Of a stretch of 57,853 nucleotides of DNA, positions 17,617-47,484 are shown in pieces (position 1 is the first letter of the stretch; every line of letters begins with the position of its first letter). Below the pieces are notes generated by a model. That model was not told the DNA's origin and did not search any database. It was given only the letters and a program-made list of their open reading frames with translations. The DNA comes from an uncultured Spirochaetales bacterium (GTDB lineage: Bacteria; Myxococcota_A; UBA9160; PR03): the NCBI GenBank assembly GCA_964353555.1, contig CAYGWM010000017.1, forward strand, positions 1 through 57,853, given 5' to 3'. The position numbers and the translations under genes are program-made.

Positions 17617-18071
17617 GGAGGTCCGCCTGCGGGCGCGGAAGGCGGCTGCGCCAGCGCACTCACCCATTCGGGTCGCGCGAGACCGAGCGAACGCCCGAGG
17701 GCGGCCAGTCGCACCGGATGCCGCAGCTGTTGCTGCTCGACGGTGAGTCGGCGCTGCTCTTCGAGCAGCAGCTGCTCGTTCTGCATGGAACTCGCGAGTC
17801 GGTAGCGCAGATCGATCGACTCGGTTCGGAGCTGCACCAGTACCAGCGCGGCGGCGAGACCGCCGGCGGCGATCGCAACCCACGCGCTGCGCGGGACGGA
17901 ACGGCGTTCGCGGCGCAGCTCGGGCGCCGACAGATCCTGGCCGGTGGCGATGGGCGGAACGCCGCGAGGCCCGCGGCCGCGCGTCCGCGGTCCTACGCGC
18001 GCCCGCTGGCGCCGCGACGGAGCGGCGGGTCGCGATCGCAAGTCCCTGCCAGTCGTCTTTCGGGTGTCCAT
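17613..18071 (-). CDS. ftsL: Cell division protein FtsL-like
   Basis: Arg-rich N-terminal tail, one TM (WVAIAAGGLAAALVLV), coiled coil ending LRHPVRLAALG..LGL..P; lies between rsmH and ftsI. Confidence 0.8.
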   Translation of the reverse strand: MDTRKTTGRDLRSRPAAPSRRQRARVGPRTRGRGPRGVPPIATGQDLSAPELRRERRSVPRSAWVAIAAGGLAAALVLVQLRTESIDLRYRLASSMQNEQLLLEEQRRLTVEQQQLRHPVRLAALGRSLGLARPEWVSALAQPPSAPAGGPP

Positions 18072-19030
18072 CAGGCTGCCTCCGGTAATCGCTCGGCGAC
18101 GCGAAGTCGGACCGAGCGGGCGCGCGGGTTTTCGCGCAGCTCCTCGGCGCTGGCTTGCACGGCGCGCGGCGTGACGATGCGCACGCGCGGCTTTCGGCCG
18201 CAGGTGCAGACGGGTTGGCGGGGCGGGCAGACGCAACCGCGCGCTTCCGCGCGCAGGCGTTGCTTCACGAGCCGGTCTTCCAACGAGTGATACGAGAGCA
18301 CGACGAGGCGACCGCCGGGCACCAGCGCATCCATGGCCGCGTCGATCGCGTCGGCGAGTGCGCCGAGTTCGTCGTTCACGGCGATTCGCAGCGCTTGGAA
18401 TACCAACGTCGCAGGATGGTGACGGCGCCCGCCGCCGACCCGGGCGTGTTCGATGACGCGCAGCAGGTCGCGCACGGTGCGGAGCGGGGCATGGCGACGC
18501 GTCTCGTCGATGGCGCGGGCCAATCGGTGTGCTCCGGGCAGCTCTCCGTATTCGCGCAGCCATCGTTCGATCTCTGCCGCGCTGGCGCTCGACAACAGAT
18601 CGGCGGCGGTGGCCGGAAGACGTTGGTCCATGCGCATGTCGAGCGGCGTCACGTCCGCCGTTTCCTCGGAAAAACGAAAGCCCCGTTCTGGGGCATCGAG
18701 CTGTCGGGAGGAGACACCGAGATCGAGCAACACCGCGTCGACCCGCGCCCACTCGAGCTTTTGGAGTACGCTCCGAAGCTCGCGAAATGACGCTTGTTCG
18801 AGATGGACGCGGTCGCCGGCGGGAGCGAGCCGCGCGGCAGCGGCCGCGAGCGCCTCCCCATCGACGTCGAGTCCAAGCAAAGTGCCGGTAGGACCGATCA
18901 GCCGGAGAATCGCCTCGGCGTGACCACCACCGCCGACCGTCCCATCCACCACGTGGTGGCCCGGTCGGAGGGCGAGCCCGTCGAGGCTTTCGCAGAGTAG
19001 AACGGGCCGGTGGTGGAAGGAGCCGGCCAT
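18071..19030 (-). CDS. rsmH: 16S rRNA m4C1402 methyltransferase RsmH (MraW)
   Basis: HRPVLL, DGTVGGGGHA, LLDLGVSS.QLD..ERGF, FQALRIAVNDEL, SYHSLEDR, NPRARS. Confidence 0.97.
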   Translation of the reverse strand: MAGSFHHRPVLLCESLDGLALRPGHHVVDGTVGGGGHAEAILRLIGPTGTLLGLDVDGEALAAAAARLAPAGDRVHLEQASFRELRSVLQKLEWARVDAVLLDLGVSSRQLDAPERGFRFSEETADVTPLDMRMDQRLPATAADLLSSASAAEIERWLREYGELPGAHRLARAIDETRRHAPLRTVRDLLRVIEHARVGGGRRHHPATLVFQALRIAVNDELGALADAIDAAMDALVPGGRLVVLSYHSLEDRLVKQRLRAEARGCVCPPRQPVCTCGRKPRVRIVTPRAVQASAEELRENPRARSVRLRVAERLPEAA

Positions 19031-19050
19031 GTGCGAAGTCTCCAGCTGCC

Positions 19051-19192
19051 TTCTCGACGGCATCCGCCGCCGAGAAAAAAGGGGTGCCTCGGAGCCCCTG
19101 AGAATGCGGTTCGAACCCCCCTTTTCTCCCCGCATTCCATGTTGGGGCTCCGAGAACACCCCCTCTCGATCGGAGACATTGCTGTCTCCGAT
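19051..19192 (-). ncRNA. Candidate structured cis-regulatory RNA/attenuator in the mraZ-rsmH spacer
   Basis: Three helices read directly: 10-bp stem 19169-78/19183-92 with a GCAA tetraloop on the transcribed strand; nested rod 19081-86/19157-62, 19088-98/19144-54, 19102-09/19130-37 followed by U6; 11-bp stem 19051-61/19066-76. Confidence 0.5.
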
Positions 19193-19218
19193 CCCCCCAG
19201 CGTGTCGAACCTCTCCCC

Positions 19219-19677
19219 CTAAATCCCTTGCTTCGGGGTTCGCGCGGCGTTCGAGACGACCGTTTGAATCTCCCGGAAATTGCCTTGCGTGCGCGCGATG
19301 ACCTCGTCGAAGCGCGCGCGGTCCCAGATCTTGATATGCGTGCCGGCGCCCGCGATCACGACGTCCTTGTCCAGGTGCGCGTGTTCGCGAAGCGCGGGCG
19401 GGATCAGAATTCGACCCTGGCCGTCGGCTGCGCAGAGCGACGCGCCTGATAACATGAACAGCTGGAGATCCTGCGCCTCGGGCAGGAACGGATCGGTCGA
19501 GAACAGACTCTCTTCGTAGGCGAGCCAGTCTTCATGCGGGTAGAGCGCCAGATGGTCCGGCATGTTGGAGAGAAACGGAGCGTTGTCACTTCGCCGCTGC
19601 AGTTCCACTCGCAACTCCGCCGGCAGACTCACGCGACCCTTTGCGTCGATCGTGTGCATGTAACGGCCTCGGAACAT
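19219..19677 (-). CDS. mraZ: Division/cell wall cluster transcriptional repressor MraZ
   Basis: MFRGRYMHTIDAKGRVSLP and second repeat DGQGRILIP..LREHA.L.K.VVIAG. Confidence 0.96.
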   Translation of the reverse strand: MFRGRYMHTIDAKGRVSLPAELRVELQRRSDNAPFLSNMPDHLALYPHEDWLAYEESLFSTDPFLPEAQDLQLFMLSGASLCAADGQGRILIPPALREHAHLDKDVVIAGAGTHIKIWDRARFDEVIARTQGNFREIQTVVSNAARTPKQGI

Positions 19678-19728
19678 CGGGGGCCTCGAACCACTTGGTT
19701 GGCGTCGTGGGCCCCACTGAATGAACAA

Positions 19729-19762
19729 CCACTCAATCCCACTTCATCCCACGAAACGCCAC
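19729..19762 (-). promoter_or_regulatory. MraZ operator: four GTGG repeats at a 10-bp period
   Basis: Plus-strand CCAC at 19729, 19739, 19749 and 19759 (minus strand GTGG-N6 x4) upstream of mraZ; matches the established MraZ box pattern. Confidence 0.85.
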
Positions 19763-19763
19763 C

Positions 19764-19793
19764 CTTATAACTCCCCATCCCACGGGAGTGCAA
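19764..19793 (-). promoter_or_regulatory. Sigma70-like promoter of the dcw cluster
   Basis: Minus strand TTGCAC (19793-88)-N18-TATAAG (19769-64), T-rich tract upstream, directly upstream of the MraZ boxes. Confidence 0.6.
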
Positions 19794-19908
19794 GCAAAAA
19801 AATCAATCAAATCAGAGCTTTCGCCGATGTTTCGCCTGTCACGCCAAATCTTGTGGATCGGCACGCGACGAAATACGAAATGGCGACGTGGGAAAAACGC
19901 GGCGCGGA

Positions 19909-20964
19909 TCAGGCGGCGCCGAGGTCCGCGAAGCGATCGCGATGAACGGCCGCGACCCGGCGAATCAGCTGCGCGAGCGTGCTGCCGGCCACGGGCTCGG
20001 GCGCTTGCGCGAGAAGTGGCGCGGCCGGGTCGAGCAAAGCGTCGAGCACCGCCGAAGTGCCTTCGTAGAGGCCGCTCGGGGCGTAGCCGCCTTCGAGCAC
20101 GAACAGCAGGCGACCGCCGCAGACCGTCTCGGCGAGCGCGCGCACGATGCGCGTCATCTCCGCGAAGCCCGCGCGGCCGAGCTCCATCGACGCCAGCGGA
20201 TCATCGTGGTGCGCGTCGAAGCCACACGACACCATAATGAGTTCAGGGCGAAACGCGAGTGCGACGGGCACGAGAATCCGGCGCAGCACGCCAACGTAGT
20301 CCTCGTCACCGCAACCGGGTGGGAGCGGCACGTTCACCGTCGCGCCGACGCCATCCCCGCGTCCCGCTTCGACGAAGTCGCCGGAGCCGGGATAGAACGG
20401 GAACTGATGCGTCGAGAAGTAGAGCAGGTCGCGATCTTCCTCGAAGCAATGCTGCGTGCCGTTGCCGTGGTGAACATCCCAATCGACGATCAGTAGCCGT
20501 TCTACGCCGTCGCGTCGCAACGCCTGGGCGGCGATGGCGATGTTGTTGAACAGGCAGAATCCCATCGCGCGACTCGCTTCCGCGTGATGGCCGGGCGGGC
20601 GAACGGCGGCGAACGCCGCGTCGGCCCGACCCTGCGCGACGGCGCGCGCAGCATCGATCGTCGCTCCTGCGGCGAGTCGTGCAACGTCGTAGCTCGCACG
20701 CGATACATAGGTATCCGGATCGAGTCGCATCGGCGCCATTCGCACCGCGGCCGCGATCTGCCGGAGGTGGTCAGCGGCATGTACGGCGACCAGTTCGCCT
20801 TCGTCCGAGGGCCGCGCCTCGATGGGAATCAGCTGGCTGCGACGCTCTGTGATCGCGCGCCCCACGGCGGCGAGTCGCTCAGGACACTCAGGATGACCGA
20901 TCGGAGAACGGTGCTCGGTGAAGCGCCGGTCTTCGACGATCGCGACGCGACGGGTGGCGCTCAT
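19909..20964 (-). CDS. Histone deacetylase family (AcuC/AphA-like) Zn-dependent deacetylase
   Basis: HPECPERL, RPPGHHA..AMGFC.FNN, DWDVHHGNGTQ, SCGFDAH..DPL, LEGGY. Confidence 0.95.
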   Translation of the reverse strand: MSATRRVAIVEDRRFTEHRSPIGHPECPERLAAVGRAITERRSQLIPIEARPSDEGELVAVHAADHLRQIAAAVRMAPMRLDPDTYVSRASYDVARLAAGATIDAARAVAQGRADAAFAAVRPPGHHAEASRAMGFCLFNNIAIAAQALRRDGVERLLIVDWDVHHGNGTQHCFEEDRDLLYFSTHQFPFYPGSGDFVEAGRGDGVGATVNVPLPPGCGDEDYVGVLRRILVPVALAFRPELIMVSCGFDAHHDDPLASMELGRAGFAEMTRIVRALAETVCGGRLLFVLEGGYAPSGLYEGTSAVLDALLDPAAPLLAQAPEPVAGSTLAQLIRRVAAVHRDRFADLGAA

Positions 20965-47370: not shown

Positions 47371-47484
47371 GGAGAAAGGGGACGGTCCTCGATCGTGCCT
47401 GGCTGTGGAGAAAGGGGACACGCCTCGCGAGGTGTGTCCCTCGAGTCCACGGTTCGGTCACGTTGAGGACCGTCCCCTTTCTCC
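47371..47484. repeat. MITE/REP-like element with perfect 20-bp terminal inverted repeats
   Basis: GGAGAAAGGGGACGGTCCTC (47371-90) and GAGGACCGTCCCCTTTCTCC (47465-84); internal partial copy at 47407 and a 26-bp near-perfect palindrome at 47415-47440. Confidence 0.85.

What the first reader, a model, noticed from the sequence alone, without database searches (positions are those of the whole stretch)
19031..19218. Almost fully base-paired 188-nt mraZ-rsmH spacer: candidate attenuator or novel RNA controlling the dcw cluster
Seen, on the transcribed strand: a perfect 10-bp stem capped by a GCAA GNRA tetraloop, then an ~80-nt three-tier rod (6+11+8 bp perfect segments) ending in CACCCC-UUUUUU, terminator-like. 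An 11-bp stem overlaps the end of that U tract. The rod's loop (GAGAAAAGGGG) is complementary to CCCCUUUUUUCUC, so alternative folds are possible. Established: mraZ and rsmH are usually nearly adjacent. Inference: conditional termination or processing could uncouple MraZ from the essential downstream genes.
Basis: partly seen in the sequence, partly recalled or inferred. Interest (0 to 1): 0.65.

Follow-up and report, generated by a model that had tools for sequence, protein, structure and literature searches.

The report
New structured RNA between mraZ and rsmH
The 188-base gap between the first two genes of the cell-division gene cluster encodes a real folded RNA that is not in Rfam. It is kept in nearly every genome of one uncultured order of Myxococcota, and it is most likely a control or processing element for the division operon rather than a simple transcription stop signal.

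Summary
The mraZ-rsmH spacer (window 19031-19218, minus strand) folds at -113 kcal/mol, with z = -7.5 against shuffles.

It is not a repeat. It is single-copy in its genome and matches no Rfam 15 family, including the actinobacterial mraW motif RF01746.

A covariance model built from relatives finds exactly one sense-strand copy in 179 of 193 genomes of the same order (Myxococcota MAGs, including UBA9160). Five more appear with filters off. The copy lay directly after mraZ in all 20 genomes compared and had mraZ before and rsmH after in 35 of 36 loci. About 250 other genomes of the phylum gave no credible match. In two sister-order genomes mraZ and rsmH overlap, with no spacer.

Covariation is strong: 39 of 50 pairs change on both sides and 93.5% of cells pair, against about 50% for slid controls.

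The conserved anatomy is:
- a 5' G-tract just after the mraZ stop codon;
- a GGAGG/CCUCC hairpin;
- a GAGAG junction;
- a long rod capped by an invariant GGGGGG loop;
- a pyrimidine tail with two competing partners.

The U6 "terminator" tail exists only in the window's own genus, so conditional termination is not the conserved function.

Best reading: a new family of cis-acting intercistronic RNA in the dcw operon. The mechanism is inferred, not shown.

The parts
19219..19677 (-). mraZ coding sequence (152 aa). Its UAG stop lies directly before the RNA element.
   Evidence: ORF and translation MFRGRYMHTIDAKGR.... Homologues lie immediately upstream of the RNA in 35 of 36 loci and in 20 of 20 genomes.
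19060..19208 (-). Core of the conserved structured RNA, as matched end to end by covariance model R1.
   Evidence: 157.5 bits, E = 8e-43 on the minus strand. The plus strand of the same place scores 36.5 bits.
19193..19198 (-). 5' G6 tract. It is the predicted 5' strand of the closing helix P1, pairing with the pyrimidine tail.
   Evidence: RNAalifold on two independent MAFFT alignments pairs it with the tail. In the 35-row model alignment the tract is mostly G4-G6 and is shortened or interrupted in a few rows. In most loci it sits 4-22 nt after the mraZ stop.
19168..19193 (-). P2 hairpin GAUCGGAGACA-GCAA-UGUCUCCGAUC. Order-wide consensus is nCGGAGGnn...nnCCUCCGn.
   Evidence: Fold. Of its 11 pairs, 8 change on both sides and 92% of cells pair (helix 2).
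19163..19167 (-). Junction GAGAG (GAGAGGUU in most families). It is a competing partner for the pyrimidine tail.
   Evidence: Nearly invariant. Cognate junction/tail duplexes are more stable than non-cognate ones (-6.77 vs -5.89 kcal/mol, permutation p = 0.002). Compensatory variants seen by eye: GGUU/AACC, GAUU/AAUC, GGCU/AGC, GGACU/AGUCC, GGAU/AUCC.
19081..19162 (-). P3 long rod. Its basal helix is GGGGUG/CACCCC, followed by (C/U)C(C/U)CGGAGC/GCUCCG(G/A)GG, a variable middle and a distal helix.
   Evidence: Helices 3-6: 26 of 31 pairs change on both sides, and 99% of cells pair in the basal 17 bp.
19116..19121 (-). Invariant GGGGGG in the apical loop of the rod.
   Evidence: Identical in 35 of 35 diverse sequences. 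It is also kept in divergent variants that lack P2 or whose basal helix has changed to GAAGUG/CAUUUC (G024, G047). The closing 3-bp stem covaries (GUG/CAC, GUC/GAC, GAA/UUC, GCA/UGC, helix 6).
19072..19080 (-). Pyrimidine tail, UUUUUUCUC here. This is the feature that looks like a terminator.
   Evidence: The U6 is confined to the window's genus. Other lineages have CUCUU, CCUCC or CCCCC.
19052..19075 (-). H3 hairpin UCUCGGCGGC-GGAU-GCCGUCGAGA. It is specific to the window's family.
   Evidence: Fold. Compensatory changes within the family: GGCGGC/GCCGUC, GGCGGU/ACCGUC, GGCUGC/GCAGUC. It is not part of the order-wide model.
19040..19043 (-). GGAG Shine-Dalgarno sequence of rsmH, about 10 nt before the AUG at 19030.
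   Evidence: Read directly from the sequence. In the G000 fold it is embedded in an outer helix with the sequence just after the mraZ stop. That helix is not supported across the order.
18071..19030 (-). rsmH (mraW) coding sequence, the 16S rRNA m4C1402 methyltransferase. It is the first gene downstream of the RNA.
   Evidence: ORF with N-terminus MAGSFHHRPVLL. rsmH starts 9-140 nt after the model match in 33 loci.
19713..19783 (-). GTGGG repeats upstream of mraZ. They are likely MraZ operator boxes at the operon promoter and are given here as context only.
   Evidence: Pattern positions. The assignment rests on general knowledge of MraZ boxes and was not tested.

Best explanation
The spacer encodes a previously uncatalogued family of structured RNA that is transcribed as part of the dcw operon mRNA, between mraZ and rsmH.

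**Anatomy.**
- A G-tract starts about 13 nt after the mraZ stop codon.
- Next comes a GGAGG/CCUCC hairpin (P2).
- Then a GAGAG(GUU) junction.
- Then a rod of about 35-45 bp (P3), whose tip displays an invariant GGGGGG in a 7-8-nt loop above a purine-rich internal loop.
- Last is a pyrimidine tail. The tail can pair either with the 5' G-tract, closing a three-way junction, or with the GAGAG junction, lengthening the rod.

**Proposed action (inferred, not shown).** I propose that it acts in cis and after transcription. It sets or adjusts the expression of rsmH and the fts/mur genes behind it relative to mraZ. The G6 loop would be the contact point for a trans factor: a protein, the pyrimidine-rich 3' end of 16S rRNA, or a small ligand. 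The choice of partner for the tail would be the part that moves. Because the G-tract lies within reach of a ribosome terminating at the mraZ stop, mraZ translation could bias that choice.

**What is shown.** The RNA structure, its strand, its single-copy syntenic position, its spread across one order, and the lack of a conserved terminator.
For: **Structure.** z = -7.5.

**No known family.** No Rfam family matches at E <= 10. RF01746 does not hit the spacer, while the Corynebacterium glutamicum control does hit.

**Single copy.**

**Distribution.**
- One sense hit in 179 of 193 genomes of the order, and in 68 of 74 genera.
- With filters off, G169, G170, G172, G047 and G024 also carry a version.
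- Three of the remaining misses have no detectable mraZ, and one (G180) has mraZ about 140 nt from a contig end, with weak partial hits downstream of it.
- There are no hits in 32 genomes of other orders of the class.
- About 250 other genomes of the phylum gave only one 26-bit hit.
- In the sister order mraZ and rsmH overlap, with no spacer.

**Synteny.** mraZ ends just before the element and rsmH follows it.

**Covariation.**
- A MAFFT + RNAalifold analysis made without the model finds 25 of 50 pairs compensatory.
- On 35 diverse sequences, 39 of 50 pairs change on both sides and 93.5% of cells pair, against 45-54% when partners are slid. No shuffle out of 500 reaches the observed values.

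**Strand.** 209 G-U cells on the sense strand; 157.5 bits sense against 36.5 antisense.

**G6 loop.** Invariant in 35 of 35 sequences, and retained where the basal helix has covaried or P2 is missing.

**Two partners for the tail.** Each shows an advantage of cognate over non-cognate pairs (p < 0.0002 and p = 0.002).
Against: - Every organism with the element is an uncultured MAG.
- No conserved expression platform was found. The rsmH start lies at a variable 9-140 nt from the element. No terminator is conserved. A helix linking the region after the mraZ stop to the rsmH ribosome-binding region is not supported across the order (p = 0.09 overall, p = 0.25 outside the window's family).
- Much of the sequence conservation lies inside helices. 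That fits protein or RNase recognition as well as it fits switching.
- The cognate/non-cognate tests count lineages, not independent events.
- The factor that binds the G6 loop is unidentified.
Confidence: 0.55

Rival explanations
1. Conditional intrinsic terminator or attenuator. The rod plus U tract would stop a fraction of transcripts after mraZ, and alternative folds would relieve the stop.
For: In G000 the GC-rich rod is followed directly by UUUUUU. The same U6 is present in G002 and G005.
Against: Only 2 of the 35 aligned representatives have a U run of 4 or more after the rod. Most read AAU, AGA or GAC and then CUCUU or CCCCC. Even inside the genus, four species read UUUCUU. The U/C tract is predicted to be base-paired, with the G-tract or with GAGAG, rather than free. 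A terminator does not explain the invariant G6 loop. The terminator scan did not call the site.
Confidence: 0.08
2. RNase III (or other RNase) processing and stability element. The long double-stranded rod would be cut, separating the mraZ message from the rsmH-fts-mur message. The leftover hairpins would protect the new ends and so set different half-lives.
For: The rod is 35-45 bp and nearly continuous when the tail pairs with GAGAG. It sits exactly between two cistrons that overlap in the sister order. [quoted passage not shown]
Against: RNase III sites rarely need an invariant apical loop or invariant helix sequences. No cleavage data exist.
Confidence: 0.17
3. A stable non-coding RNA excised from the operon transcript and acting in trans, with the G6 loop as a seed for C/U-rich targets or as a protein sponge.
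For: It is a compact RNA of about 150 nt with stable hairpins at both ends and an exposed invariant loop. There is a precedent in operon-derived decRNAs from the same operon in E. coli that bind Hfq or ProQ (PMC6156199).
Against: No conserved 3' terminator or own promoter is evident. The strict synteny with mraZ/rsmH is more typical of cis elements. No target was sought.
Confidence: 0.1
4. A riboswitch. The junction plus the G6 loop would form a pocket for a metabolite linked to the downstream genes, for example SAM/SAH for RsmH or a peptidoglycan precursor, and ligand binding would select one of the two tail pairings.
For: It has a multi-stem architecture, invariant unpaired nucleotides (GAGAG, G6) and mutually exclusive pairings. 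It is always upstream of the same gene. The analogous actinobacterial mraW motif is likewise an unassigned candidate, listed as 'switch ?' (PMC2864571).
Against: Most invariant positions are inside helices. No expression platform is conserved. It matches no known SAM or SAH riboswitch class.
Confidence: 0.08
5. Not an RNA at all: a repeat or MITE, a DNA-level palindrome or protein operator, or chance self-complementarity in GC-rich DNA.
For: The genome does hold an unrelated palindromic repeat family with 73 copies of its 13-mer terminus. G-runs resembling MraZ boxes occur in the spacer.
Against: The element is single-copy in its genome. It has 209 G-U pairs on one strand, and the sense strand scores 121 bits more than the antisense strand. 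Compensatory changes occur in 39 of 50 pairs. The spacing of the G-runs (35 and 42 nt) does not fit the 10-nt MraZ box period.
Confidence: 0.02

Closest known systems
mraW RNA motif (Rfam RF01746; Weinberg et al. 2010, PMC2864571)
   Same: A conserved structured RNA in the presumed 5' UTR of mraW (= rsmH) at the head of the dcw cluster. It is a candidate cis-regulator with no known ligand or partner and is confined to one bacterial lineage.
   Different: That motif is found in Actinomycetales. Its covariance model does not match this spacer: there is no hit at E <= 10 in the region, and the best hit anywhere in the genome is 20 bits against a 50-bit cut-off, while the C. glutamicum control passes. 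The present RNA is longer (about 150 nt against 107 model positions) and has its own signature: G-tract, GGAGG/CCUCC hairpin and a rod with a G6 loop. It is analogous by position, with no detectable homology.
UpsM and the extended 5' leader of the Rhodobacter sphaeroides dcw cluster (PMC5089854)
   Same: A lineage-specific structured RNA embedded in the dcw operon transcript that modulates read-through into the division genes.
   Different: UpsM lies upstream of mraZ, ends at a terminator and is released as an sRNA. The present element lies downstream of mraZ and has no conserved terminator. I saw only the title and abstract of that paper.
[quoted passage not shown]
   Same: Stable, structured, RNase-resistant pieces of the same operon's mRNA.
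   Different: Those pieces lie inside coding sequences and were found from RNA-seq. This one is intercistronic, was found by covariation, and has no expression data.
Rho-independent terminators and attenuators
   Same: In G000 only: a GC-rich stem followed by U6.
   Different: The U tract is absent from most representatives and is predicted to be paired.

Membership tests
mraW motif (RF01746) | Scores at or above the family's gathering threshold (50 bits) with the Rfam covariance model | tested here: not met
   There is no RF01746 match in 18500-20100 at E <= 10. In the whole genome the best match is 20 bits on another contig, while the Corynebacterium glutamicum control is over the cut-off.
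mraW motif (RF01746) | Located in the 5' UTR of mraW/rsmH | tested here: met
   rsmH follows in all 36 loci and starts 9-140 nt downstream in the 33 loci where a start could be placed.
mraW motif (RF01746) | Taxonomic range Actinomycetales | tested here: not met
   Named records that carry the element are Myxococcota or 'Deltaproteobacteria' MAGs, including UBA9160.
Intrinsic terminator | GC-rich hairpin immediately followed by a U-rich tract | tested here: inconclusive
   It is present in G000 (UUUUUU) but was not called by the scan. Only 2 of 35 representatives have a U run of 4 or more.
Intrinsic terminator | RNA 3' ends at the U tract | not testable with these tools
REP / MITE-type repeat | Many dispersed copies in the genome | tested here: not met
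   BLAST of the spacer against the genome finds only itself plus chance matches under 30 nt. The covariance model finds one locus.
Riboswitch | Conserved multi-helix aptamer with invariant unpaired nucleotides, upstream of a consistent gene class | tested here: met
Riboswitch | Conserved expression platform (terminator or sequestered ribosome-binding site) coupled to the aptamer | tested here: not met
   There is no conserved terminator. The distance to the rsmH start is variable. A helix from the post-stop region to the ribosome-binding region is not supported.
Riboswitch | Specific ligand binding | not testable with these tools
   This needs in-line probing or ITC.
RNase III substrate | About 20 bp or more of near-continuous double-stranded RNA | tested here: met
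   Predicted and covariation-supported rod.
RNase III substrate | Cleavage by RNase III | not testable with these tools
   This needs an enzyme assay or 5'-end mapping.

The most novel reading that the evidence does not exclude
The element is a sensor RNA, either a new riboswitch class or a ribosome/rRNA-sensing leader. Its invariant G6 loop and GAGAG junction would bind a signal, for example a cell-envelope precursor, SAM/SAH, or the pyrimidine-rich 3' end of 16S rRNA in 30S subunits. Binding would flip the tail between its two partners, tying expression of the essential division and wall genes to that signal and to mraZ translation.
Probability: 0.12. Interest if true: 0.85.

Novelty: new member of a known kind. 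Interest (0 to 1): 0.58.

Why it matters
Control of the dcw cluster after its promoter is poorly understood, and the one catalogued RNA motif at this position (mraW, in Actinomycetales) is still an orphan. Here a second, unrelated lineage has independently placed a large, strongly conserved folded RNA at the same junction, where sister lineages simply overlap the two genes.

That suggests the mraZ/rsmH boundary is a recurrent control point for the balance between MraZ and the genes behind it.

The family now has about 180 representatives, a well-supported secondary structure, an obvious mutational target (the invariant G6 loop) and a concrete pair of competing helices. It can therefore be tested in vitro and in reporters even though the hosts are uncultured.

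Tried and rejected
1. **Known RNA family.** The permissive Rfam scan gave only chance hits (livK and two microRNA models, 20-22 bits). RF01746 is negative.

2. **Repeat or MITE.** Rejected.

3. **Pseudoknot in G000.** I considered pairing between the post-stop GGUUCGA and the loop UCGAACC. The 5' segment is absent in genus g6 and in other families, so I dropped the idea.

4. **Long-range helix joining the post-stop region to the rsmH ribosome-binding/start region (structural translational coupling).** It is predicted in the G000 fold and is plausible within the family by eye. The advantage of cognate over non-cognate pairs is not significant (p = 0.09 overall, p = 0.25 outside the family).

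5. **Small ORF.** The AUG in the P2 loop and the 93-codon frame are not conserved. Loops differ, and alignments show 1- and 2-nt indels.

6. **Mimicry of 16S rRNA around C1402 or the 3' end.** I compared by eye against E. coli rRNA sequence recalled from memory. Only a shared GGGGUG/CACC helix and, within the family, GCUGG..GAUC..CCUCC were seen. This is not convincing. The MAG has no 16S 3' end to compare with.

7. **MraZ operator boxes in the spacer DNA.** The spacing is wrong.

8. **G-quadruplex formed by the G-runs.** It cannot be excluded, but the covariation supports helices.

Full report
**Setting.** The window is GC-rich (the whole genome is 68% G+C). On its minus strand it carries the head of a dcw cluster: mraZ (19219-19677), then the 188-nt spacer (19031-19218), then rsmH (18071-19030), followed by ftsL/ftsI-like genes. 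GTGGG repeats with a 10-nt period lie upstream of mraZ at 19713-19783. They are probably MraZ boxes, but I did not test this.

**The observation.** Folded as RNA, the transcribed strand of 19020-19230 reaches -113 kcal/mol. Dinucleotide shuffles average -79.1 (sd 4.5), so z = -7.48, and none of 200 shuffles does as well.
- the first stem is 11 bp with a GCAA loop;
- the rod is about 90 nt and ends in CACCCC followed by UUUUUU;
- a 10-bp hairpin overlaps the end of the U run.

The promoter/terminator scan called no promoter and did not call the rod.

**Not a known family, not a repeat.** A permissive Rfam 15 scan of the region returned only chance matches of 20-22 bits. The actinobacterial mraW motif (RF01746), the one catalogued RNA at this genomic position, does not match the spacer. 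Its best hit in the whole genome is 20 bits on another contig against a 50-bit cut-off, while the Corynebacterium glutamicum control passes. BLAST of the spacer against its own 4.6-Mb genome finds only itself and short chance matches.

**Relatives.** BLAST found the spacer in 14 relatives from the same family, always as one copy. A MAFFT alignment already showed compensatory changes in all three hairpins. Two named, more distant records have the same architecture between mraZ and rsmH but with different sequence in the stems. These are 'bacterium TMED88' and 'Deltaproteobacteria bacterium SOY_29'.

RNAalifold on 17 sequences predicted 50 pairs, 25 of them with changes on both sides. I built a covariance model from that alignment (R1: 150 positions, 50 pairs).

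**Distribution.**
- R1 finds a hit in 179 of 193 genomes of the order: 95 of 101 high-quality genomes and 68 of 74 genera.
- Where a genome shows a second hit, it is the antisense strand of the same locus. In G000 the scores are 157.5 bits sense and 36.5 bits antisense.
- Among the 14 misses, three have no detectable mraZ. One (G180) has mraZ about 140 nt from a contig end, with weak partial hits downstream of it.
- Five others (G169, G170, G172, G047, G024) do show the rod with its G6 loop once Infernal's filters are off. Some of these lack the first hairpin or have a covaried basal helix, GAAGUG/CAUUUC.
- No hit was found in 32 genomes of other orders of the class.
- About 250 further genomes of the phylum gave only a single 26-bit match.
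- In two sister-order genomes mraZ and rsmH overlap or abut, with no spacer.
- Records that carry an exact 21-mer of the motif are titled Myxococcota or 'Deltaproteobacteria' MAGs, among them isolate UBA9160. The order is therefore an uncultured Myxococcota lineage. I infer this from record titles, not from a taxonomy assignment.

**Synteny.** In 20 of 20 genomes checked by coordinates, mraZ ends 7-51 nt before the model match. In 35 of 36 oriented loci mraZ precedes the element and rsmH follows it; the one exception sits at a contig end. The 5' G-tract begins 4-22 nt after the stop codon in most loci, most often 13-14 nt. rsmH starts a variable 9-140 nt after the match.

**Structure and covariation.** I aligned 35 diverse sense hits to the model. 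On that alignment 93.5% of cells form standard pairs, against 45-54% when partners are slid by 1-3 columns. Thirty-nine of 50 pairs show changes on both sides, and no shuffle out of 500 reaches any observed measure. This alignment is fitted to the model, so it leans towards the model's structure. However, two MAFFT/RNAalifold analyses made without the model recover the same helices.

There are 209 G-U cells on the sense strand. This, together with the score asymmetry between strands, argues for RNA rather than a DNA palindrome.

The consensus anatomy is:
- a G-tract;
- P2, nCGGAGGnn-loop-nnCCUCCGn;
- the junction GAGAG(GUU);
- P3, with a nearly invariant base GGGGUG/CACCCC, then (C/U)C(C/U)CGGAGC/GCUCCG(G/A)GG, a variable middle, and a distal helix with a purine-rich internal loop;
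- a 3-bp apical stem that covaries (GUG/CAC, GUC/GAC, GAA/UUC, GCA/UGC);
- a loop holding GGGGGG, identical in 35 of 35 sequences;
- a pyrimidine tail.

The third hairpin of the window (19052-19075) is real but specific to the window's family.

**What the tail pairs with.** RNAalifold pairs the tail with the 5' G-tract, closing a three-way junction. Single-sequence minimum-energy folds more often pair it with the GAGAG(GUU) junction, which lengthens the rod. Anchored listings show matching changes for the junction pairing: GGUU/AACC, GAUU/AAUC, GGCU/AGC, GGACU/AGUCC and GGAU/AUCC.

In a cognate against non-cognate duplex test, both pairings are more stable for native partners:
- junction-tail: -6.77 against -5.89 kcal/mol, p = 0.002;
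- 5' region-tail: -11.23 against -9.74 kcal/mol, p < 0.0002.

These tests do not correct for shared ancestry. I read them as support for two mutually exclusive pairings, not as proof of a switch.

**Terminator idea.** A U run of 4 or more after the rod is seen in 2 of the 35 aligned representatives. Within the window's genus, three species have U6 and four have UUUCUU. The conserved function is therefore not intrinsic termination. Partial termination in G000 itself remains possible but untested.

**Other mechanisms examined.**
- An outer helix in the G000 fold joins the sequence just after the mraZ stop to the rsmH ribosome-binding region. This would give structural translational coupling. It looks plausible within the family but is not supported across the order (p = 0.09 overall, p = 0.25 outside the family).
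- A small ORF, rRNA mimicry, MraZ boxes and a family-specific pseudoknot were considered and set aside (see Tried and rejected).

**Reading.** What is shown is a new, order-wide, single-copy, strand-specific structured RNA fixed between mraZ and rsmH. How it works is inferred.

Its tight link to the mraZ stop codon, its loose link to the rsmH start, the invariant exposed G6 loop and the two competing partners for the tail point to a cis-acting post-transcriptional element. Such an element would be recognised by a trans factor and might be influenced by ribosomes finishing mraZ.

The main rivals are RNase III processing of the long rod, release as a stable non-coding RNA, and a riboswitch. Release as a stable RNA has a precedent in the decRNAs of the same operon in E. 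coli (PMC6156199).

The closest known thing is the actinobacterial mraW motif (PMC2864571). It shares the position and the orphan status, but no homology is detectable.

**Earlier notes.** The scan's notes on this genome concern other loci and did not bear on this finding.

Noticed in passing
window 47371-47484 (also G000 contigs C22, C47, C9, C164, C116, C86, C54 and others): A palindromic unit with termini GGAGAAAGGGGAC...GTCCCCTTTCTCC belongs to a genome-wide repeat family. The 13-mer occurs 73 times on 32 contigs, against 0.17 expected from composition. There are 26 hairpin-type units, and copies are 80-92% identical over 80-116 nt. It is REP/MITE-like and unrelated to the single-copy spacer RNA. 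Its terminus does resemble the family-specific loop GGAGAAAAGGGGGG of the spacer.
   Followed up: partly
window 19713-19783 (minus strand, upstream of mraZ): GTGGG/GTGGT repeats lie upstream of mraZ. Three of them are spaced 10 nt apart (19728, 19738, 19748), next to a TTGC..TATAAG promoter-like stretch. These are probably MraZ operator boxes of the dcw promoter.
   Followed up: no
L187 (G195) 6-1360 and L193 (G197) 2-1323: In the sister order mraZ and rsmH overlap (by 4 nt in G195). The 150-190-nt RNA-bearing spacer is therefore an insertion specific to the window's order.
   Followed up: partly
L184 (G047) 482-593; L194 (G024) 1812-1939: Reduced or divergent versions of the element lack the GGAGG/CCUCC hairpin or carry a doubly compensated basal helix (GAAGUG/CAUUUC). 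They still keep the GGGGGG apical loop.
   Followed up: partly
36 oriented loci, first bases after the mraZ stop codon: Many lineages have a Shine-Dalgarno-like GAGG(U)U or GGAGU directly after the mraZ stop (UAG GAGGUU...). The same word occurs in the GAGAGGUU junction. Its role is unknown.
   Followed up: no
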